From positions 157,544,001-157,608,000 of the forward strand of contig NC_086097.1 of the NCBI RefSeq assembly GCF_963921235.1: DNA of 64,000 nucleotides. Reading direction: 5' to 3'. Positions 6,866 through 61,478 of this stretch are shown in pieces. Origin of the DNA: Mobula hypostoma (Eukaryota). Every line of letters starts with the position of its first letter. The first letter of the stretch is position 1. A program made the position numbers and the translations under genes. The notes beneath the pieces were generated by a model. The model was not told where the DNA came from. It did no database searches and saw only the letters and a program-made list of their open reading frames with translations.

Positions 6866-8597
6866 CATACAAATACTGGAGGAACTAAGCAGGTCAAGCA
6901 GTATCCATAGAAATGGACAAACAGTCAACATTTTGGGCTGAGACCATTCTTCAGGACTGGAAAGTAAGGCAGAACATGCCAGAATAAAAAGGTGGGGGGG
7001 GTGGGGGAATGAGGTAGAAGGTGATAGGTGAAGCTAGCTGGGTGTGAAAGATACATGGCTGAGAGAAAGGAATCTGATAGGAGAGGAAAATGGACAATAG
7101 GGGATAGGGAAGGAGGAGGAGCACCAGGGAGACGTGACGGGCAGGTGCAAAGAGGGGAGGGGGAGGGAACTTTTTTTAATGTGAAGGAGATATCAATATT
7201 CGCATCAGGTTGGATACTACCCAAATGGAATATAAGGTGTTGCTCCTCCACCCTGAGGGTGACCTCATCAAGGCACAAGTGCTTGTCAAATTCATCAACT
7301 TTGCCTTCAACTTCCACCCTGCCCTTAAAATCACCTAGCCTATTTCTGATACTTCTCTATCCTTTCTTCATCCCTCTGTCTCCATCTCTGGAGGCAAGCT
7401 GTCTACTAACATCTTTCGTTAACCTACCGATCCCACGGCTTTCTTGATTATATCTCTTCCCACAGTGTCTCCTGTAAAAATGCTGTTCCCTTTTCTCAGT
7501 TCCTTCTACTGTGCTGCATCTGCTCCCAAGATGAAGCTTTCCTTTTCAGGACATCAGAGATGTTCTCCTCCTTCAAAGTAATAGGGTTTTCCTTCCTCCA
7601 CCATTGATGCTGCCCTCACCTGCATCTCCTCCATTTCCTGGACATATGTGCCCACACAATCTTACCACTTCCTTCGCAGTAATAGAGTTAGTCTTGTCTT
7701 TACCTACCACCCCATGAACCTCCACACCCAACACATCATTCTCCTCCATTCCTGCAACCTCCAAGGGGATTCTATCACCAAACACATCTTTCCTCTCTCT
7801 CACTCTCCACTTTTCACTGGGATCACTCCCTCCATGATTCCTTCTCCATTTGTCCCTCCCCACTAATCTCCCTCCCAGTACTTATCCCTGCAAGTGGCCA
7901 AAGTGTTAACCCTGATCATTCACCTCCTCCCTCACCTACATTCAGGACCCCATACTATCCTTCGGAGTGTGGCAACACTTCACCTGCAAATCTGCTGGGT
8001 CGTCTATTGTATCCAGTGGTCCAAATGTGGCCTCTACTCTATTGGTGAGACCCATCGTAAATTGGAAGACCACTTTGTTGAGCACCTCTGCTCCACCTGC
8101 CAAAAGTGGAACTTCCCGGTGACCAAACCTTTTAATTCCTTTTCCCATTCCCGTTTCGACATGTCAGTCCATGGCCTACTTTTGTGCCATGTTGAGGCCA
8201 CCCTCAAGGTGGAAGAAAAACATCTTACATTCAGTCTGGCTAGCCTCCAAGCTTATGGCATGAATATCAATTTCTCCTTCTGGTAAAAAAAGAATTCCTC
8301 CCCCTTCCCTTTTCTTCTATTCCCCACTCTGACCTCTTATCTCTTCTCACCCACCTATCACCTCCCCCTGGCGCCCATCCTCCTTTCCTTTTTCCTATGG
8401 TCCACTCTCTTCTCCTATCAGATTCCTTCCTCCTTCCCCTCCCCCCACCTTATTATTCTGGCATCTTTCCCTTTCCTTTCCGGTCCTGAAGAATGGTCTT
8501 GGCCTGAAATGTTGACAATTTATTCATTCCTGCCTGAATGTTGGGTTCTTCCTGCATTTTGTGCTGAATTTCATCATCTGAAGAAATTCTTGTGATT
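6866..8597. mobile_element. Penelope-like element with inverted 5' arm (arm 6866-~7278 minus; body ~7280-8597 plus)
   Basis: Plus-strand RT C-terminal remnants and GIY-YIG (ORF 7894..8286 VVYCIQWSKCGLYSIGETHRKLEDHFVEHL); minus arm repeats EEQHLIFHLGSIQPD and the UTR; decayed hammerheads at 6922-6959 (-) and 8482-8516 (+). Confidence 0.9.
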
Positions 8598-10178: not shown

Positions 10179-10658
10179 GATCAGTGCTGGGTCCATTGTT
10201 ATTTGTCATCTATATCAATGATCTGGATAATAATGTGGTAAAATTGGATCAGCAAATTTGCTGATGATACAAAGATTGGAGGTGTAGTGGACAGTGAGGA
10301 AGGTTTTCAAAGCTTGCAGAGGGATTTGGACCTGCTGGAAAAATGGGCTGAGAAATGGCAGATGGAGTTTAATACAGTCAAGTGTGAGGTATTGCACTTT
10401 GGAAGGACAAACCAAGGTAGAACATACAAGGTAAATGGTAGGGCGCTAAGGAGAGCAGTAGAATAGAGGGATCTGGGAATACAGATACAAAATTCCCTAA
10501 AAGTGGCGTCACAGGTAGATAGGGTTGTAAAGAGAGCTTCTGGTACATTGGCCTTTATAAATCAAAGTATTGAGTATAAGAGTTGGAATGTTATGGTGAC
10601 ACACATAAAAGTTGCTGGTGAACGCAGCAGGCCAGGCAGCATCTGTAGGAAGAGGTGC

Positions 10659-10694
10659 AGTCGACGTTTCAGGCCGAGACCCTTCGTCAGGACT
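10659..10694 (-). ncRNA. Minimal type I hammerhead ribozyme motif (intact)
   Basis: Reverse complement reads AGTC CTGACGA AGG-GTCTCGG-CCT GAAA CGTC GACT. Confidence 0.85.
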
Positions 10695-11315
10695 AACTGA
10701 AGATAGAGTGATTAAGGGATTTGAAAGTTGGAGGGGGAGGGAGGGATCCAAAATGATAGGAGGAGACAGGAGGGGGAGGGATGGAGCCAAGAGCTGGACA
10801 GGTGATAGGCAAAAGGGATACGAGAGGATCATGGGACAGGAGGTCCAGGAAGAAAGACGGGGGGGGGGGACCCAGAGGATGGGCAAGGGGTATATTCGGA
10901 GGGACAGAGGGAGAAAAAGGAGAGTGAGAGAAAGAATGTGTGTATAAAAATAAGTAACAGATGGGATACGGGGGGAGGTGGGGCATTAGCAGAAGTTAGA
11001 GAAGTCGATGTTCATGCCATCAGGTTGGAGGCTACCCAGACGGAATATAAGGTGTTGTTCCTCCAACCCGAGTGTGGCTTCATCTTTACAGTAGAGGAGG
11101 CCGTGGACAGACATGTCAGAATGGGAATGGGATGTGGAATTAAAATGTGTGGCCACTGGGAGATCCTGCTTTCTCTGGCGGACAGAGCGTAGATGTTCAG
11201 CAAAGCGGTCTCCCAGTCTGCGTCAGGTCTCGCCAATATATAAAAGGCCACATCGGGAGCACCGGATGCAGTATATCACCCCAGTCGACTCACAGGTGAA
11301 GTGTTGCCTCACCAG

Positions 11316-11621
11316 GAATCGGCTGGGGTGATATACTGCGTCCGGTGCTCCCGATGTGGACTTTTATATATTGGCGAGACCCGACGCAGACTGGGAGACC
11401 GCTTTGCTGAACATCTACGCTCTGTCCGCCAGAGAAAGCAGGATCTCCCAGTGGCCACACATTTTAATTCCGCATCCCATTCCCATTCTGACATGTCTAT
11501 CCACGGCCTCCTCTACTGTAAAGATGAAGCCACACTCAGGTTGGAGGAACAACACCTTATATTCCGTCTGGGTAGCCTCCAACCTGATGGCATGAACATC
11601 GACTTCTCTAACTTCCGCTAA
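11316..11621 (+). pseudogene. GIY-YIG endonuclease domain of a Penelope-like element (5'-truncated, open frame)
   Basis: GVIYCVRCSRCGLLYIGETRRRLGDRFAEHLRSV..PVATHFN..LEEQHLIFRLGSLQPDGMN: VIY..YIG motif with CxxC, conserved R, H, E and N. Confidence 0.93.
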
Positions 11622-11916
11622 TACCCCACCTCCCCCTCGTACCCCATCTGTCACTTATTTTTATATACACATTCTTTCTCTCACTCTCCTTTTTCTCCTT
11701 CTGTCCCTCTGAATATACCCCTTGCCCATCCTCTGGGTCCCCCCCCCACCTTGTCTTTCTTCCCGGACCTCCTGTCCCATGATCCTCTCGTATCCCTTTT
11801 GCCTATCACCTGTCCAGCTCTTGGCTCCATCCCTCCCCCTCCTGTCTTCTCCTATCATTTTGGATCTCCCCCTCCCCCTCCAACTTTCAAATCCCTTACT
11901 CACTCTTCCTTCAATT

Positions 11917-11952
11917 AGTCCTGACGAAGGGTCTCGGCCTGAAACGTCGACT
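11917..11952 (+). ncRNA. Minimal type I hammerhead ribozyme motif (intact; predicted cleavage after C11948)
   Basis: Stem I AGTC/GACT, core CTGACGA, stem II AGG/CCT, GAAA, palindromic ACGT stem III, GTC cleavage triplet. Confidence 0.87.
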
Positions 11953-12448
11953 GCACCTCTTCCTAGAGATGCTGCCTGGCCTGCTGCGTTCACCAGCAAC
12001 TTTTAAGTGTGTTGCTTGAATTTCCAGCATCTGCAGAATTCCTGTTGTTTATGTTATGGTGAGGTTGTATAAGGCATTGGTGAGGCCAAATTTGGAGTAT
12101 TGTGTACAGTTTTGGTCACCAAATTATAGGAAGGATATTAATAAGGTTCAAAGAGTGCAGAGAAGATTTACAGGGATGTTGCTGGGACTTGAGAAACTGA
12201 GTTACAGAGAAAGGTTGAATAGGTTAGGACTTTATTCCCTAGAGCATAGAAGAATGAGGGGAGATTTGATAGAGGTATATAAAATTATGATGGGTATAGA
12301 TAGAGTGAATGCAAGCAGGCTTTTTCCACTGAGGCGAGGGGAGAAAAAAAAACCAGAGGACGTGGGTTAAGGGTGAAGGGGGAAAAGTTTAAAGGGAACA
12401 TTGGGGGGGGTGCTTCTTCACACAGAGAGTGGTGGGAGTGTGGAATGA

Positions 12449-14325
12449 GACCTTAAGACCATGAGACAAAGGAGCAGAAGTCAGCTATTCGGCCTATCAA
12501 GTCTGCCCCGCCATTTTAGCATGAGCTGATCCATTCTCCCATTTAGTCCCACTCCCCCGCCTTCTCACCATAACCTTTGATGCCCTGGCTACTCAGATAC
12601 CTATCAATCTCTGCCTTAAATACACCCAATGACTTAGCCTCCACTGCTGCCCCTGGCAACAAATTCCATAGATTCACCACCCTCTGGCTAAAAAAATTTC
12701 TTCACATCTCTGTTCTGAATGGGCACCTTTCAATCCTTAAGTCATGCCCTCTCATACTAGACTCCCACATCATGGGAAACAACTTTGCCACATCTACTCT
12801 GTCCGTACCTTTCAACATTCGAAATGTTTCAATGAGATCCCCCCTCATTCGTCTAAACTCCAAGGAATACAGTCCAAGAGCGGACAAACTTTCCTCATAT
12901 GTTAACCCTCTCATTCCCGGAAACATTCTAGTGAATCTTCTCTGTACCCTCTCCAATACCAGCACATCCTTTCTTAAATAAAGAGACCAAAACTGCCCAC
13001 AGTACTCTAAGTGAGGTCTGACCAGCGCCTTATAGAGCCTCAACATCACATCCCTGCTCCTATACTCTATTCCTCTAGAAATGAATGTCAACATTGCATT
13101 CGCCTTCTTCACCACCGACTCAACCTGGAGGTTAACCTTAAGGGTATCCTGTACGAGGAATCCCAAGTCCCGTTGCATCTCAGAACTTTGAATTCTTTCC
13201 CCATTTAAATAATAGTCGGCCCGTTTACTTCTTCTGCCAAAGTGCATAACCATACACTTTCCAACATTGTATTTCATTTGCCACTTCTTTGCCCATTCTT
13301 CCAATCTATCCAAGTCTCTCTGCAGACTCTCTGTTTCCTCAGCACTACCAGCCCCTCTGCCTATCTTCGTATCATCAGCAAACTTAGCCACAAAGCCATC
13401 TATTCCATAATCTAAACCTTTGATATACAACGTAAAAAGAAGCAGCCCCAACACGGACCCCCGTGGAACACAACTGGTAACCGGCAACCAACCAGAATAG
13501 GATCCCTTTATTCCCACTCTCTGTTTCCTGCCAATCAGCCAACGCCCTATCCACATATGTAACTTTCCCGTAATTCCATGGGCTCTTGTCTTGTTTAGCA
13601 GCCTCATGAGTGGCACCTTGTCGAAGGCTTTCTGAAAATTCAATATACAACATCCATTATGGCTCCCTTGTCTAGCCTACTTGTAATTTCCTCAAAAAAT
13701 TGTAATAGGTTTGTCAGGCAGGATTTTCCACTAAGGAAAGCATGCTGAGTTCTGCCTATCTTGTCATATGCCTCCAGGTACTCCGTAACCTCATCCTTGA
13801 CAATCGACTCCAACAACTTCCCAACCACCGATGTCAAGCTAACAGGTCTATAATTTCCTCTTTGCTTCCTTGACCCCTTCTTAAATAGCAGAGTGACATT
13901 TGCAATCTTCCAGTCCTCTGGAACCATGCCAGAATCTATCAACTTTTGAAAGATCATCGCTAATGCCTCTTCAATCTCCACAGCTACTTTCTTTAGAACA
14001 CGAGGGTGCATTCCATCTGGTCCGGGAGATTTATCTACCTTTAGATTATTCAACTTCCTGAGTACTTTCTCTGTCGTAATTGTGACTGTGCACACTTCCC
14101 TTTCCTGCCACCCTTGAGAGTCCGGTATACTGCTGATGTCTTCCTCAGTGAAGACTGATGCAAAATACTCGTTCAGTTCCTCTGCCATCTCCTTATCTCC
14201 CATTACAATTTCTCCAGCATCATTTTCTATCGGTCCTATATCTACTCTCACCTGTCTTTTACTCTGTATATACCTGAAAAAGCTTTTAGTATCCTCTTTG
14301 ATATTATTTGCTAGCTTCCTTTCAT
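12449..14325 (-). mobile_element. Young 5'-truncated CR1 LINE with near-intact RT (one frameshift)
   Basis: ORFs 13640..14251 (KSPGPDG, NYRPVSLTS, SCLTNLL) and 12702..13643 (FQKAFDKV, PRGSVLG, FADDTK); tail at about 12449-12467. Confidence 0.96.
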
Positions 14326-16322
14326 GCTGTCAGATGAAGTGGTAAATGCGGGCTCACTTTTAACATTTAAGAAAAACTTGGATAGGTACATGGATGAGAG
14401 TTGTATGGAGGGATATGGTCCAAGTGCAGTTCAATGGGACTAGGTAGAAAAATGGTTTGGCACAGCCAAGAAGGGCCAAAAGGCCTGCTTCTGTGCTGTA
14501 ATGTTCTATGGTTCTATGGTTCTAATTATTGTTCGATGTGACCACTACCCTCTGTGCGAAACATACACTCATATCTCCTTTAATTATCTCTCCTCTCACC
14601 TTCAACATATGCCATCTAGTTTTGGACTCCCCCATCCTAAGAAAAACACTCTATCCACTCCAACTATGCTTAACATAGATTTATAGACCTCCATAAATAT
14701 GGTCACCATTCAGCCTCCTACATTCCAGAGACGATAAGTCCAGCCTATTCAATCTCTTTTAAATGCATTTCCTCTCACTTATCTGGATTAAATTCCATTT
14801 ACACCATTCCGCTCAACTTTCCAAGTGATCTATGTCTAATTTCACTGGAATTGAAAAGACTGAACCAGGACACATTAAGACATAAAAGTTTGAGATGAAT
14901 CTTGAGGCCATATGCTGAGGGATTGTTCCTATCAACTGTAAAATGTGGAATTAGATGGTAAAAGCATGCTCATTCCTGCTTCTATTTTTGTAGCCGTGCC
15001 TCATAAGCATCAATGGAGCTGACAGCTTGGAAGGTTTTTCTCTTCCAGTTCATTTTATTATATTTGAACTAGAGTTCACTTTTAGCATGGAAACCTATTT
15101 TGTGCATTTAATGCAGGTCCTTCCAAGTTGTACTTGCAACAGCTTATGAGAGTGATGCCAATCTTCTCCTCAAGTTCACCCCATGGGAACCTAATATGTA
15201 GCGATTTTGTGCACATGTTATTCAGAAGATTGTATTTAAGATTACTTCTGCCGACAGCAATATTAAATTTAACAAGAAATATTTAATCCATTTTAAGGGA
15301 AATATATTTATAGCTTGCTTTTAAATAGTTTTATTGATACCAAAAAGATTCTAATATTATACAGTACACTGTTTTTTGTAGATTCATATGATAGTGCAAC
15401 TGTGCAAAATTAAGTTGCCAAGGTCAAATTGGTAAATGAGTGAAGGATTTGAATTCGACAATACACCAATGATTACTCTATTTCTGACTGAATATCAGAT
15501 AAGCAAATATTATCTATGAAACTAAATCTCCATACAGTATAAGTAAATACTTTCAAACGATTAAGTTAATCCAATCTCACAGTAATTGGTGAACAAATCT
15601 GTTGCAATCTATGATATATCTAAATCTGTGGATTGGATTAGAGTATCATAATCCACAGCTACTTTACCAGAAGACTCCATACAGTATTTATTGATTTGTG
15701 CTATCTTCTAAACTAAATTGTTAATTTTATTACCTGATCATCTTCCAGCAATTCTTGTAAAATCATTAAATGTAAAAGCATTCTCAAGCAGTAATTATGC
15801 ATGGTTTGATTGTCCAGAAAATTACCCACATAACACATCCTCCTGGAGTTTTATGGTACCGACAAAATAATAAATATATGTACTCCTTAAGGAAAACTGT
15901 AAATTATTGTAGATTTACCAATATGTGAGTCGGTTGCCTTTAAATTATTCCAAGTTATCCATCATTCTTTCCATCAACTAAACTTCCAAAATGTATAATT
16001 TTCCCTGTTTTTCTTCTTCGTATGTACTTGCCTGGAAAACCTTGCTTATGTTTTAATAAGTTTCATTGAGGTATAGTTAACAAATTTGCCTCTACAGCTA
16101 AAGAAGGATATACCCTCAATAGTCCAGGGAAGGTTCACGAGTTGATTCCTGGGATGTGAACAGACAATATGTTGAGAAGTTGTTTCTTTCAACTGCAAAA
16201 TGTGCAATTAGGTGGCAAAGGAGTTGGTCATTTGGGACTGAAATAGGAACAAAAAATCTCTATCCAGAATTCTATACATTAGAATGCCTTAGATTTCCAG
16301 CATCTGAACATTTACAAGTGAT

Positions 16323-16497
16323 CACGAGGAATTTTGCAGATGCTGGAAATTCAAGCAACACACATCAAAGTTGCTGGTGAACACAGCAGGCCAGGCAGCA
16401 TCTCTAGGAAGCGGTACAGTCGACGTTTCGGGCCAAGACCTCTTCCAAGAGATGCTGCCTGGCCTGCTGCGTTCACCAGCAACTTTGATGTGTGTTG
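16323..16497. mobile_element. 175-bp Penelope-terminus hairpin insertion, 14-bp TSD
   Basis: TSD CATTTACAAGTGAT at 16309-16322 and 16498-16511; 56-bp inverted arms 16356-16411 and 16442-16497; half hammerhead in the loop. Confidence 0.93.
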
Positions 16498-17167
16498 CAT
16501 TTACAAGTGATTCAAGGTTTGGAACACTAAAGGAATGAGGAGATATTGAAATCAGGCTGGAAGAAGAGCTGAGAGATAGAATTAGCCATTACTTTATTCT
16601 TGCCTCTATTTTATCTATTACAATTCAATGGAGCTGACAAATCTGATTTGTCTCCACACCTGTGGTCAATTGCAAGATCCTTAATAAAGCCCAATAACAG
16701 CAAGTAATTTAATTAGGCAACTCAAACTTAAGCCTATGGCTTGAACACATGACTATCACACAAAATAAGGCATTGCCAACTGAGCCAACAAAACAATTTA
16801 AAAGATAATCACTTACATTTAAACTAGTTCAAGGCTACCAGTCTGAAGCTGCAACGATGTGTTTTCACTCATTAAAAGTCTGATCCCTGTTCTCTAGAAC
16901 CTGGATGACCATATTAGCTTAAATCTGTATTTGTCCCTGCACAACAGCATACTCAATGACACCAGCCTACTGAGAATGCACTGCAGTGTAAAACAGGGGA
17001 ACAAAAATATAAACCAGGACATCAAATCATGATGATAACAGTATAACCTTGCATGCTTACTGTCATATCACCACAACAAACTAAAACTAACGTATGTGAT
17101 CTATTTCTTTTTCCATCTGCTCTGTTCCTATCAGCAGAATGAATAGTTATTAAAAGAAGGAACAATA

Positions 17168-19764: not shown

Positions 19765-20516
19765 CAGACATCCCACCTCTCCCGGAAGTTCCGGGAGTCT
19801 CCTGCATATTAATAGTGGCTCCCTGATGCCCGCAAATTATATACAATATCACGGAAATCAATTTTTTTGACAGCGAGCATGCAAGTGAGAAAGAGAGAGA
19901 GAGAGAAAGAGTACGAGAGCGACCATGAGAGAGAGAGTGCGCGAGTGAGAAAGCGAGAGATAAAGCAAGTGCGCAAGCGAGAGCGCGCGAGAGCACACGC
20001 GAGACAGTGCGAGAGCAAGCGAGTGACGAGAGAGAGAGCGCGAGCGAGAGATAAAGTGAGACCGCGAGCGAGAGATAAAGTGAGACCGCGAGCGAGAGAG
20101 AGCGAGAGAGAGCGCGAGAGCGACCACGAGAGAGAGAGAGCATGAGCAAGAGAGAAAGGGAGAGAGACAGTGAGAGCGCACCATGGCAGAGTGTTCCAAA
20201 AAAGAGAATATAAAACGTACGTCACCCCAGACTACCCTAAAGCGTACCCCTGTCTAATAGGGGTCAAAATAATGACAGTGTTGTTCGCTGCACTGTTTGC
20301 ATCAGTGACTTTTCTATTGCCCATGGTGGGTTAAGACTGTAAATGTAAAAGACATGTTGAGGTGAGTTTAACAGGTATCATTCATTCATTAGCGTAGCTA
20401 ACTTTATTTAGACTAACTGGCTTGCTGCTATGGAGCTACTCTATTGCAGACATCCCACCTCTCCCGGAAGTTCCGCGAGCCTCCCTGAAATGAGTTTTTG
20501 CAGGGTGGGATGTCTG
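19765..20516. mobile_element. Non-autonomous DNA transposon (MITE), 13-bp TIR, 6-bp TSD
   Basis: CAGACATCCCACC at 19765 and GGTGGGATGTCTG ending 20516; CCTTCC at 19759-19764 and 20517-20522; the host CR1 rejoins across it. Confidence 0.9.
19872..20180. repeat. GA-rich, CpG-rich low-complexity repeat inside the MITE
   Basis: (GA)n interspersed with GCGCGA; tandem 24-mer GCGAGCGAGAGATAAAGTGAGACC. Confidence 0.92.
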
Positions 20517-25301: not shown

Positions 25302-25420
25302 CACAAACAAGAGAAAATCTGCACATGCCAGAAATCAAAGTAATACACACAAAATGCTGGAGGAACTCAGCAGGCCAGGCAGCATCATTGGAAAAGAGAA
25401 AGCAGTCGACGTCTTGGGCT
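25302..25420 (-). mobile_element. Penelope terminal fragment
   Basis: ACAAGAGAAAATCTGCACATGC..AAAATGCTGGAGGAACTCAGCAGGCCAGGCAGCATC..CAGTCGACGT. Confidence 0.88.
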
Positions 25421-33442: not shown

Positions 33443-33997
33443 AAATGAGAAAATCTGTAGATGCTGGAAATCTGATTAATACACACAAAATGCTGGAGGA
33501 ACTCAGCAGGCCAGCGACATCTATGGAAAAGAGTAAACAGCCGGGGTTTGGGGCCAAGACCCTTCATCAGGACTGAAAAGAGACATGAGGTCAAAGTAAG
33601 AAGGTGGGGGATTAGGAGAGGAAGAAGTACAAGGTCGTGAGTGATAGGTGAAACCAGGATGGGGTGGAGGAGAGAAGGAACAAGCTGGGAAGTTGATTGG
33701 TGAAAGAGATAAAGAGCTGGAGAAGGAGAGGACAGAGGGCCATGAAAGAATGGGAAGGGAGAGGAGAACCAGAGGTGGGCGATGGGCAGGTAGATAGATA
33801 AGGTGAGAGAAGGAAATGGGAATGAGGAATGGTGAAGAGGAACAAATTGAGGGGGAAGATGGTTACTGGAAGTTCAAAAAGATCAATGTTCATGCTATCA
33901 GCTTGGAGGTACACAGACGGAATATAAGGTGTTGCTCCTCCAACCTGAGTGTGGCTGCATCGCAGCAGTAGAGGGGGCCTTGGACTGACATGTCGGA
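33443..33997 (-). mobile_element. Penelope-like element 3' end with hammerhead remnant (33538-33575)
   Basis: GIY-YIG C-terminus (LQADSMNID), purine-rich plus strand, CAGTCCTGATGAAGGGTCTTGGCCC on minus. Confidence 0.9.
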
Positions 33998-44434: not shown

Positions 44435-44645
44435 ATAAAACTGCAAATGCTGGAACTCTGAAATGGAAACAGAAAGTGCTGGAAACACTCAACAGGTCAG
44501 ATAGCATCTGTGGAAAGAAAAAGAAAAACATAGTTAATTCCTCATGTGGAAGATCCTTCCTGAAAGGATTAGAATGATTTTCCTTTGACCTAAAATATTA
44601 AGTTCTGAGTTGCTGTCCAACCTACTGAGTGTTTCCAACATTTTA
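44435..44645. mobile_element. Old Penelope-terminus foldback
   Basis: AAAGTGCTGGAAACACTCAACAGG pairs with CCTACTGAGTGTTTCCAACATTTT; full terminus on the left only. Confidence 0.7.
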
Positions 44646-44669
44646 TTAAATCCTTGCACAATATTTCTA

Positions 44670-44877
44670 ATGCAATCTACTCAACATGCTGGAAGAACTC
44701 AGCCAGTCAGGCAACATCCATGGAAATGAATGAACAGTCAACATTTCAGACTGAGACTCTTCATCAAGACTCAGGATCAAGGATCAGAGTAAAGGTCTCA
44801 CCCTGAAACATTGACTGTTGAGTTCCTCCAGCACTTCGTGTGTGATGCTCTGGATTTCCAGCATCTGTAGAATCTCA
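44670..44877. mobile_element. Penelope-terminus foldback with two opposed hammerhead remnants
   Basis: Minus AGTCTTGATGAAGAGTCTCAGTCTGAAATGTTGACT (44736-44771) and plus AAGGTCTCACCCTGAAACATTGACTG. Confidence 0.8.
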
Positions 44878-59202: not shown

Positions 59203-59712
59203 AGAACAACACTCACAACATGCTGGAGGAACTCAGCAGGTCGGCAACGTTTCAGGCCGGAACCCTTCATCAGGACTGAAGAGGGAAGGGGCAGAGGCCC
59301 TATAAAGAAGGTGGGGGGAGGGTGGGAAGGAGAAGGCTGGTAGATTCCAGGGGAAAAACCGGTAAGGGGAAAGATAAATGGGTGGGGGAGGGGAAGCAGG
59401 GAGGTGATAGGCAAGAAAGGTGAAGAAGGAATCGGGGAAAGCACAATGGGTTATAGAATGAGGTGGAACCATGAGGGAGGTAGTAGGCAGCTGGGGGAGG
59501 GGGCAGAGTGAAACTGGGATAGGGGAAGGGATGGGAATTACCAGAAGTAGGAGAATTCAATGTTCATACCAAGAGGCTGGAGACTACCTAGTTGGTACAT
59601 GAGGTGTTGCTCCTCCAATCTCAGTTTAGCCTCATCATGGCAGTAGAGGAGGCCATGTATGGACATATCTGAATAGGAATGTGAAGTAGAGTTGAAGTGG
59701 GTGGCAACCGGC
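59203..59712 (-). mobile_element. Penelope-like 3' fragment with hammerhead core (59242-59278)
   Basis: Minus AGTCCTGATGAAGGGTTCCGGCCTGAAACGTT; GIY-YIG C-terminal remnant 59555-59712. Confidence 0.9.
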
Positions 59713-61293: not shown

Positions 61294-61478
61294 CACAAGA
61301 GATTCTACAGATGCTGGAAAAGTTGAGCAAAACACAAAGAGCTGAAGGAACTCTGCAAATTAGAGGGAATGTATGGAGGAAAATAAACTGTTGTCAACTT
61401 TTTAAACTGAGACTCTTCATTATTTCCCTCCATAGATTCTGTCTGACCTGCTGATTTCCTCTATCATTCTGTGTGTTT
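61294..61478. mobile_element. Old Penelope-terminus foldback
   Basis: Full terminus CACAAGAGATTCTACAGATGCTGGAAA on the left; inverted arm ends TTCCTCTATCATTCTGTGTGTTT. Confidence 0.7.

What the first reader, a model, noticed from the sequence alone, without database searches (positions are those of the whole stretch)
11917..11952. Intact minimal hammerhead ribozyme in the Penelope 3' region, present twice on opposite strands
Seen: AGTC-CTGACGA-AGG(GTCTCGG)CCT-GAAA-CGTC-GACT at 11917-11952 (+), with an identical copy at 10659-10694 (-). All catalytic-core nucleotides are present (CUGANGA, GAAA, GUC triplet), with a 4-bp stem I and a 3-bp stem II. Stem III is only the loopless palindrome ACGT. 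Established: Penelope-like elements carry such minimal type I hammerheads, and versions with a palindromic, loopless stem III cleave as dimers. Inference: this is a potentially active self-cleaving RNA about 100 nt from the element 3' end, on the GIY-YIG sense strand, that needs a partner copy to fold. It is invisible to the ORF track and probably uncharacterised in this lineage.
Basis: partly seen in the sequence, partly recalled or inferred. Interest (0 to 1): 0.78.

Follow-up and report, generated by a model that had tools for sequence, protein, structure and literature searches.

The report
Penelope hammerhead, copied mostly uncut
The 36-base motif is a real example of the tiny hammerhead ribozyme motif already known from Penelope-like jumping genes, present in tens of thousands of copies in this genome; the two copies here are mirror arms of one broken insertion that could not help each other fold, and copies across the genome tend to start just before the motif rather than at its predicted cut site, so the element likely copies itself mostly from uncut RNA.

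Summary
Observation confirmed: identical 36-mers at 11917-11952(+) and 10659-10694(-). They are the minimal type I hammerhead (min-HHR) of a young Neptune-like Penelope element; the exact 36-mer occurs 32,886 times in the genome. Corrections: (1) stem II is better read as unpaired A plus GGGU/GCCU, and stem I has a fifth U.G pair; (2) the two copies are arms of one inverted, 5'-truncated insertion (12-bp target duplication, 38-nt tail) inside a CR1-like LINE, an arrangement already published; one strand's RNA holds only one sense hammerhead and a read-through RNA is predicted to fold into a ~700-bp hairpin; (3) functionally the motif lies 61 nt upstream of the next ORF's start, and same-strand partners exist in full-length tandems 3.5 kb apart. 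Cleavage is untested. Added result: in 100 arms chosen without regard to the hammerhead, 12 start at the foot of stem I (0.7 expected) and 2 at the cut site; none of 13 long copies starts at the cut. Templates were therefore mostly uncut. This scan had already noted that pile-up in this genome and others; I found it independently and did not find it in print. New member of a known kind.

The parts
11916..11953 (+). Minimal type I hammerhead motif: stem I 11916-11920/11949-11953 (outer pair U.G), CUGACGA 11921-11927, unpaired A 11928, stem II 11929-11932/11937-11940 with loop CUCG, GAAA 11941-11944, palindrome ACGU 11944-11947, predicted cut after C11948
   Evidence: matches the consensus in PMC4209133 supplement
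10658..10695 (-). Mirror copy of the same motif in the inverted arm (36-mer identical)
11319..12050 (+). Right arm: 5'-truncated Penelope-like copy (end of GIY-YIG coding region to stop at 11621, pyrimidine-rich 3' region, hammerhead, first codons of the next ORF, tail)
10600..11318 (-). Left arm: inverted 5'-truncated copy, 30 nt longer at its 5' end and lacking the 38-nt tail; 28 differences in 694 aligned columns from the right arm
12013..12050 (+). 38-nt 'tail' present on one arm only; family 3' ends cluster at +60 to +73 and +100 to +102 from the cut site
   Evidence: PMC11167929
10588..10599 (+). Left copy of the 12-bp target-site duplication
12051..12062 (+). Right copy of the 12-bp target-site duplication
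12009..12011 (+). Position of the ORF's first in-frame ATG in full-length copies (+61 from the cut site in 3 of 3); GTG in this copy
11916..11918 (+). Family-wide pile-up of 5' ends of inserted copies (-32 to -30), inside a YYAGTC motif that resembles both an initiator and a splice acceptor (motifs recalled)
10200..12450 (+). Host: degenerate CR1-like LINE reverse-transcriptase 3' region interrupted by the insertion; the reading frame continues across the target site (CR1 label recalled from the protein's look, not tested by tree)

Best explanation
The motif is the minimal hammerhead carried in the terminal repeat of a young, very abundant Neptune-like Penelope retrotransposon, and the two copies here are passive by-products of one inverted insertion; the ribozyme is predicted to cut only weakly, with a second same-strand copy or the element's protein, and most RNAs that were reverse-transcribed were likely uncut. 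Shown: the family unit is about 3.5 kb with one 1043-aa RT + GIY-YIG ORF that starts 61 nt after the cut site; full-length partial tandems hold two same-strand hammerheads 3499-3519 nt apart; copies end at two sites about 65 and 102 nt after the cut site; 5' ends pile up at the foot of stem I. From published work on an Anolis element: reverse transcription starts internally at the two tail sites, the hammerhead is protein-assisted, and uncut RNA is the main substrate. Inferred: an alone RNA folds into an inactive rod (GACG of the core pairs with CGUC), the ACGU palindromes of two copies must pair for activity, and many template RNAs begin at about 11917, most likely because the pLTR promoter starts there, so that run-off copies give the 100-135-nt stubs. 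At this locus a read-through RNA from outside would be predicted to anneal arm to arm and bury the motif.
For: Family and anatomy. Copy number: 32,886 exact 36-mers, 95,951 matches to a downstream anchor, 49 of 100 anchored arms with intact core, stems and palindrome. Five subfamily consensuses keep the motif while the upstream region and the linker after stem I differ; the only stem changes are one-sided and keep pairing (C-G to U.G in stem I, G-C to G.U at 10.1-11.1); contigs from runs of other organisms break homology at 11917 and 11953. Inverted pairs are common: 37 of 100 arms in 19 divergent pairs against 1 convergent pair. Whole insertion folds with 1388 of 1452 nt paired. 5' ends: 12 of 100 at -32 to -30 against 0.74 expected from flanking rate, 2 at +1 against 0.31; several stubs have their target duplication directly against the stem I bases; 0 of 13 long copies start at +1 and 12 of 13 run across the upstream cut site. 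Literature: PMC4209133, PMC11167929, PMC8557442.
Against: No cleavage or RNA-end data for this family (contigs only). No two-sided compensatory change among the five subfamily consensuses, and the 55 nt after the hammerhead are just as conserved, so conservation does not by itself prove selection for catalysis. There is a small excess of junctions at the cut site genome-wide (541 at +1 against 327 at -7 and 161 at +12), which allows some cutting. The young subfamily has U at 11.1, departing from the G10.1-C11.1 consensus. The start-site reading is not shown: no excess of G before -31 junctions (9 of 50 by eye), and 10 of 13 long copies reach upstream of -31.
Confidence: 0.8

Rival explanations
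1. One reading: this locus itself makes an active self-cleaving RNA, the second copy supplying the partner.
For: All core nucleotides intact; thousands of identical copies could supply a partner in trans; an RNA starting at 11917 would escape arm-to-arm pairing and is predicted to form stems I and II (P about 0.7).
Against: The mirror copy is antisense in the same RNA; read-through RNA is predicted to be a long duplex; the nearest same-strand core matches are a degenerate one at 8486 and one about 14 kb upstream; published min-HHR monomers showed no cleavage and dimers little; no evidence this locus is transcribed.
Confidence: 0.07
2. The motif is kept mainly as a structural or protein-binding signal (or promoter/splice element) and catalysis no longer matters in the young subfamily.
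For: Templates mostly uncut; G10.1-C11.1 changed to G.U in the most amplified subfamily; monomer prefers an inactive rod, -11.0 against -7.0 kcal/mol; core mutants did not affect insertion in vitro for the Anolis element; Naiads thrive without it.
Against: Every core position and the palindrome are unchanged in five subfamily consensuses; G.U at 10.1-11.1 also occurs in published min-HHRs; small excess of junctions at +1.
Confidence: 0.25
3. The 5'-end pile-up does not mark a transcription start but arises because a 5'-to-3' exonuclease trims RNA to the foot of the hairpin, or because the cDNA lets go or folds back after copying stem I.
For: Peak sits exactly on the stem foot with shoulders on both sides; 6 of the 12 ends at -32 to -30 are inversion junctions; 16 of 100 listed +1 junctions read as stem I microhomology joins (by eye); similar rate at the upstream hammerhead of long copies (2 of 10).
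Against: The cDNA is not predicted to form stem I (-2.6 kcal/mol structure without it); an RNA hairpin blocking the enzyme would stop it at the 3' foot (+5), where there is no peak; with upstream sequence present the stems are predicted mostly unfolded (P 0.03-0.12).
Confidence: 0.35
4. Copies that start at the motif come from spliced RNA, the pyrimidine tract and AG of stem I being an intron end as in Drosophila Penelope.
For: Pyrimidine tract plus YAG precedes the core in all five subfamily consensuses; in D. virilis the intron end maps to the 5' end of helix I.
Against: No shared exon upstream of these copies; stubs such as L107 and L112 have element-derived A or G directly after the target duplication, that is, unspliced bases; peak is at -32 to -30, not at -29.
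Confidence: 0.08

Closest known systems
Minimal hammerheads (min-HHR) in pLTRs of metazoan Penelope-like elements (Cervera and de la Pena 2014, PMC4209133)
   Same: Type I, CUGANGA plus one unpaired base, GAAA-C-G-U-H with no loop 3, U-rich upstream, short helix I, mass dispersal as single truncated copies, dual copies on opposite strands
   Different: Helix II is short (4 bp with two wobbles) and 11.1 is U in the young subfamily; at least 32,886 identical copies against about 4,000 and 9,000 motifs reported for coelacanth and Xenopus; no shark, Callorhinchus or Leucoraja entry in the searchable supplement (one file not searchable)
PAc (Poseidon) element of Anolis carolinensis (Frangieh et al. 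2024, PMC11167929)
   Same: Hammerhead at the pLTR/ORF junction; two 3' ends defining a tail inside the ORF start; uncut RNA as main template
   Different: There the ORF starts in stem II, here 61 nt after the cut; this family has the CX2-5CxxC linker of Neptune/Nematis; activity tested there, not here
Insertion architecture of endonuclease-bearing PLEs (Craig et al. 2021, PMC8557442)
   Same: Partial tandems, adjacent inverted 5'-truncated copy, 30-40-bp tail at one end
   Different: Nothing essential; the 5'-end pile-up at the hammerhead edge is not in the passages read
Non-LTR retrozymes (bioRxiv 10.64898/2026.07.22.740005)
   Same: Type I hammerheads related to pLTRs
   Different: Retrozymes are tandem non-coding repeats; this is an inverted fragment of a coding element

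Membership tests
Metazoan PLE minimal hammerhead | Core CUGANGA, GAAA, NUH | tested here: met
Metazoan PLE minimal hammerhead | Unpaired nucleotide between 9 and 10.1 | tested here: met
   A11928; register preferred by energy and by C11.1 in older subfamilies
Metazoan PLE minimal hammerhead | G10.1-C11.1 pair (consensus above 80%) | tested here: inconclusive
   G.U in this copy and the young subfamily; G-C in all five older consensuses; G.U also in some published members
Metazoan PLE minimal hammerhead | Palindromic 15.2-16.2, no stem III loop | tested here: met
   ACGU
Metazoan PLE minimal hammerhead | Located in both pLTRs of a full RT-EN element | tested here: met
   L064-L066, two same-strand copies 3499-3519 nt apart
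Metazoan PLE minimal hammerhead | Covariation in stems | tested here: inconclusive
   two one-sided pair-keeping changes, no two-sided change among five subfamily consensuses
Metazoan PLE minimal hammerhead | Self-cleavage as dimer or with protein | not testable with these tools
   no assay; no raw RNA reads
EN+ Penelope-like element | Single ORF with RT and C-terminal GIY-YIG | tested here: met
   1043 aa; RVT_1 E 5.8e-5 (below curated cut-off), YIDD, GIY-YIG E 3.1e-5
EN+ Penelope-like element | Partial tandem pLTRs, inverted 5'-truncated partner, 30-40-bp tail | tested here: met
Neptune clade | CX2-5CxxC linker between RT and EN (shared with Nematis) | tested here: met
   motif at residue 910; PMC8557442 passage
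Neptune clade | RT phylogeny with reference Neptune elements | not tested
   no reference sequences fetched, no tree built
Rfam hammerhead families | Covariance-model score at gathering threshold | tested here: not met
   expected for a motif without stem III (inference)
Non-LTR retrozyme | Tandem non-coding repeats, each with a hammerhead | tested here: not met
   inverted pair of coding-element fragments

The most novel reading that the evidence does not exclude
The tens of thousands of insertions are a fossil record of the element's RNA in living germline: most short copies are run-off products of an RNA that begins at the first base of hammerhead stem I, where the element's promoter starts, so the ribozyme is the 5' cap-proximal structure of the mRNA, sits 61 nt before the start codon, and is cut in only a small minority of packaged RNAs. 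The ratio of ends at +1 to ends at -31 (roughly 1 to 6) would be an in vivo measure of Penelope hammerhead cleavage.
Probability: 0.4. Interest if true: 0.55.

Novelty: new member of a known kind. Interest (0 to 1): 0.27.

Why it matters
The motif itself is ordinary for this class of element. What the family offers is scale: the role of hammerheads in endonuclease-bearing Penelope elements is stated to be unclear (PMC8557442), and a young family with about 10^5 ends lets one read where template RNAs began. The ends agree with the one in vitro study (uncut RNA is the main substrate) and argue against ribozyme cleavage as the step that makes the retrotransposition template. They give a precise, testable position for the RNA's 5' end.

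Tried and rejected
Rfam: no hammerhead at either threshold. RNA evidence: no RNA holder listed; 22 runs, all contigs, and contigs cannot show ends or strand, so nothing is concluded on expression. First 5'-end tally came from loci chosen for the intact 36-mer and is biased; it was replaced by the downstream-anchored sample. The per-position decay test uses the same biased loci and is not used. Descriptor search gave 147 hits in 1.23 Mb against 0 in 5 shuffles, but most regions were chosen for the motif, so it shows only specificity; 146 of 147 are this family, so it gave no distant relatives for covariation. A shared upstream exon or a separate non-autonomous family behind the -31 starts: not found. 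Cap-derived G at the junction: no excess (by eye). cDNA hairpin through stem I: not predicted. RNAcofold of two copies gave an extended duplex, not a double hammerhead, and cannot represent that fold. Apparent shared 5' end at 11309 was an artefact of the query's own inversion. Lunse et al. 2017 (PMC5785218) is not held; known only from titles and review passages. Figure S2 of PMC11167929 (coverage of genomic copies) could not be seen and may already show 5'-end clustering. Pfam scan of 29 of the window's 62 frames found only LINE RT/endonuclease pieces and one weak ALKBH8_N hit; whether the locus lies in a gene is unknown.

Full report
Observation. The core pattern occurs twice in the window and never in 100 shuffles. 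Rfam has no matching family.

Structure. Stem I is AGUC/GACU plus an outer U.G (11916/11953). Stem II is better drawn as unpaired A11928, then GGGU(CUCG)GCCU: -2.3 against -1.1 kcal/mol, pairing probability 0.96 against 0.02. This matches the published min-HHR consensus, which has a base between positions 9 and 10.1 and a G10.1-C11.1 pair (PMC4209133; main text parts 1-2 of 4 and supplement file 2 part 2 read). Five subfamily consensuses built from 68 of 146 older copies all have C at 11.1, and 16-49% of depth in four public runs has C at 11940; the young subfamily has U. The isolated 38-mer prefers an inactive rod in which GACG of the core pairs with CGUC (-11.0 against -7.0 kcal/mol for the open form). 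With upstream sequence the stems are predicted mostly unfolded (P 0.03-0.12); starting at 11917 the rod forms (P about 0.7).

The locus. The two copies lie in the arms of one insertion: 10600-11318 (-) and 11319-12050 (+), 28 differences in 694 columns, flanked by a 12-bp duplication at 10588-10599 and 12051-12062. Only the right arm has the last 38 nt. The insertion interrupts a degenerate LINE reverse-transcriptase frame that continues across the target site (the CR1 label is recalled). A transcript through the whole insertion is predicted to pair 1388 of 1452 nt, each hammerhead base with its mirror. So the second copy is an antisense strand, not a partner. In the window plus 20 kb each side the other same-strand core matches are a degenerate one at 8486 and two about 14 and 22 kb upstream.

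The family. The genome (3.48 Gb, 200 contigs; organism not identified) has 32,886 exact copies of the 36-mer, control 0, and 95,951 matches to a 33-nt anchor downstream of it. In the first 100 anchored arms on contig C1, 32 have the exact 36-mer and 49 have core, both stems and palindrome intact; 37 arms form 19 divergent pairs within 4.5 kb, against 1 convergent and 7 same-strand pairs. Walking upstream gave three full-length partial tandems, L064-L066, each with two same-strand hammerheads 3499-3519 nt apart and an ATG 61 nt after the upstream cut site. The L066 ORF is 1043 aa with RVT_1 (E 5.8e-5), YIDD, a CX2-5CxxC linker and GIY-YIG: Neptune-like by the linker (PMC8557442 passages), clade not tested by tree. 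3' ends cluster at +60 to +73 and +100 to +102, the two-site tail explained by internal start of reverse transcription in the Anolis element (PMC11167929, parts 1-2 of 4 read). The motif's working place is thus the pLTR/ORF junction.

Conservation. Core, palindrome and stems are unchanged across the five consensuses while the upstream region and the linker after stem I differ; changes are N7, loop II and two one-sided pair-keeping changes; there is no two-sided change, and the next 55 nt are equally conserved. Contigs from runs of other coded organisms lose homology before 11917 (X9, X17, X19) and behind 11953 (X1, X9, X17). This supports a selected unit but does not prove catalysis.

Were templates cut? 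If cleaved RNA were copied, insertions would start at +1 (11949). In the 100 arms chosen by the downstream anchor, 12 start at -32 to -30, 17 at -36 to -28, 2 at +1, and 29 run beyond the measured range. Against a flanking rate of 0.33% per base, 0.74 are expected at -32 to -30 (Poisson P 3e-11; window chosen after seeing the data, one 3-Mb stretch, paired arms not independent) and 0.31 at +1 (P 0.04). Several stubs have their target duplication directly against stem I bases, so these are true ends. Genome-wide counts of junctions (three non-matching bases, then 27 matching) were 161 at +12, 541 at +1, 327 at -7 and 3,443 at -31. At least 16 of 100 listed +1 junctions are inversion joins through stem I microhomology. 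Of 30 loci holding the ORF start, 10 are long copies; with L064-L066 (picked as the longest of 30 hits), 12 of 13 run across the upstream cut site, two start at -30 and -26, none at +1. Templates were therefore mostly uncut, as found in vitro for the Anolis element, whose hammerhead cleaved only with protein and whose core mutants still inserted.

Why -31? Most likely the RNA begins there (about 45%): YYAGTC in all five consensuses fits an initiator (motif recalled), PLE promoters lie in the pLTR (PMC2377424 and PMC6765202 passages; in D. virilis the start is about 120 nt further upstream, before an intron), and internal priming at +65 or +102 on such an RNA gives exactly the stubs seen. Against: no cap-G signal, and most long copies reach further upstream, which requires read-through templates as well. 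Exonuclease trimming to the hairpin foot or cDNA release (about 35% together) and splicing (under 10%) remain.

What is known. Min-HHRs in pLTRs, their mass dispersal, dual copies on opposite strands, silent monomers and weak dimers are all in the 2014 paper. The inverted-plus-tail architecture is standard. One cartilaginous-fish genome is covered in a 2026 retrozyme preprint (part 1 of 5 and passages read). PMC6155905 and PMC6466107 were seen as passages; Lunse et al. was not available. I did not find the 5'-end pile-up in seven paper searches (listings only unless named above); unseen supplements (PMC11167929 Fig. S2, PMC4209133 file 1) may bear on it. This scan's own notes report the same pile-up in this genome and in others; I had measured it before that look-up, and those notes are not independent support.

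Verdict. Real feature, new member of a known kind; the locus itself is unremarkable. Interest 0.27, carried mostly by the family-level evidence on uncut templates.

Noticed in passing
window 16313-16512: Second, shorter inverted insertion of the same family with a 14-bp target duplication; it has C at 11.1 and both arms start inside or after the hammerhead, so neither has the CUGA box.
   Followed up: partly
window 2574, 6882-7004, 8483, 17597, 25305-25419, 33448-33574, 42412, 44441-44873, 59247-59317, 61295-61418: Older, decayed copies of related subfamilies with remnants of the same hammerhead and tail.
   Followed up: partly
L214-L243: Of 30 loci that hold the ORF start, 20 stop within about 190 nt after it, many at 114-187 nt, suggesting further minor start sites of reverse transcription inside the ORF; 765 genome-wide matches against 95,951 for the terminal anchor.
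   Followed up: no
window 12009-12011; L064-L066: The first in-frame start codon is ATG in full-length copies but GTG in many others including this one; a second ATG lies 27 codons further on.
   Followed up: no
listing: A recurrent inversion junction (10 of 100 listed) joins an arm starting at -1 to an arm starting at -31, both breaks in stem I.
   Followed up: no
L009, L084, L092, L116 and window 10588: Several insertions sit in the same kind of LINE 3' region as this one; may only reflect that LINE's abundance.
   Followed up: no
L011 and L019; L152 and L096: Pairs of loci sharing flanks as well as the insertion (L011/L019 98.6% over 3.2 kb), that is, duplicated segments; a caution for counting copies as independent events.
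   Followed up: no
window 19881-20188: Long GA/GC-rich low-complexity tract.
   Followed up: no
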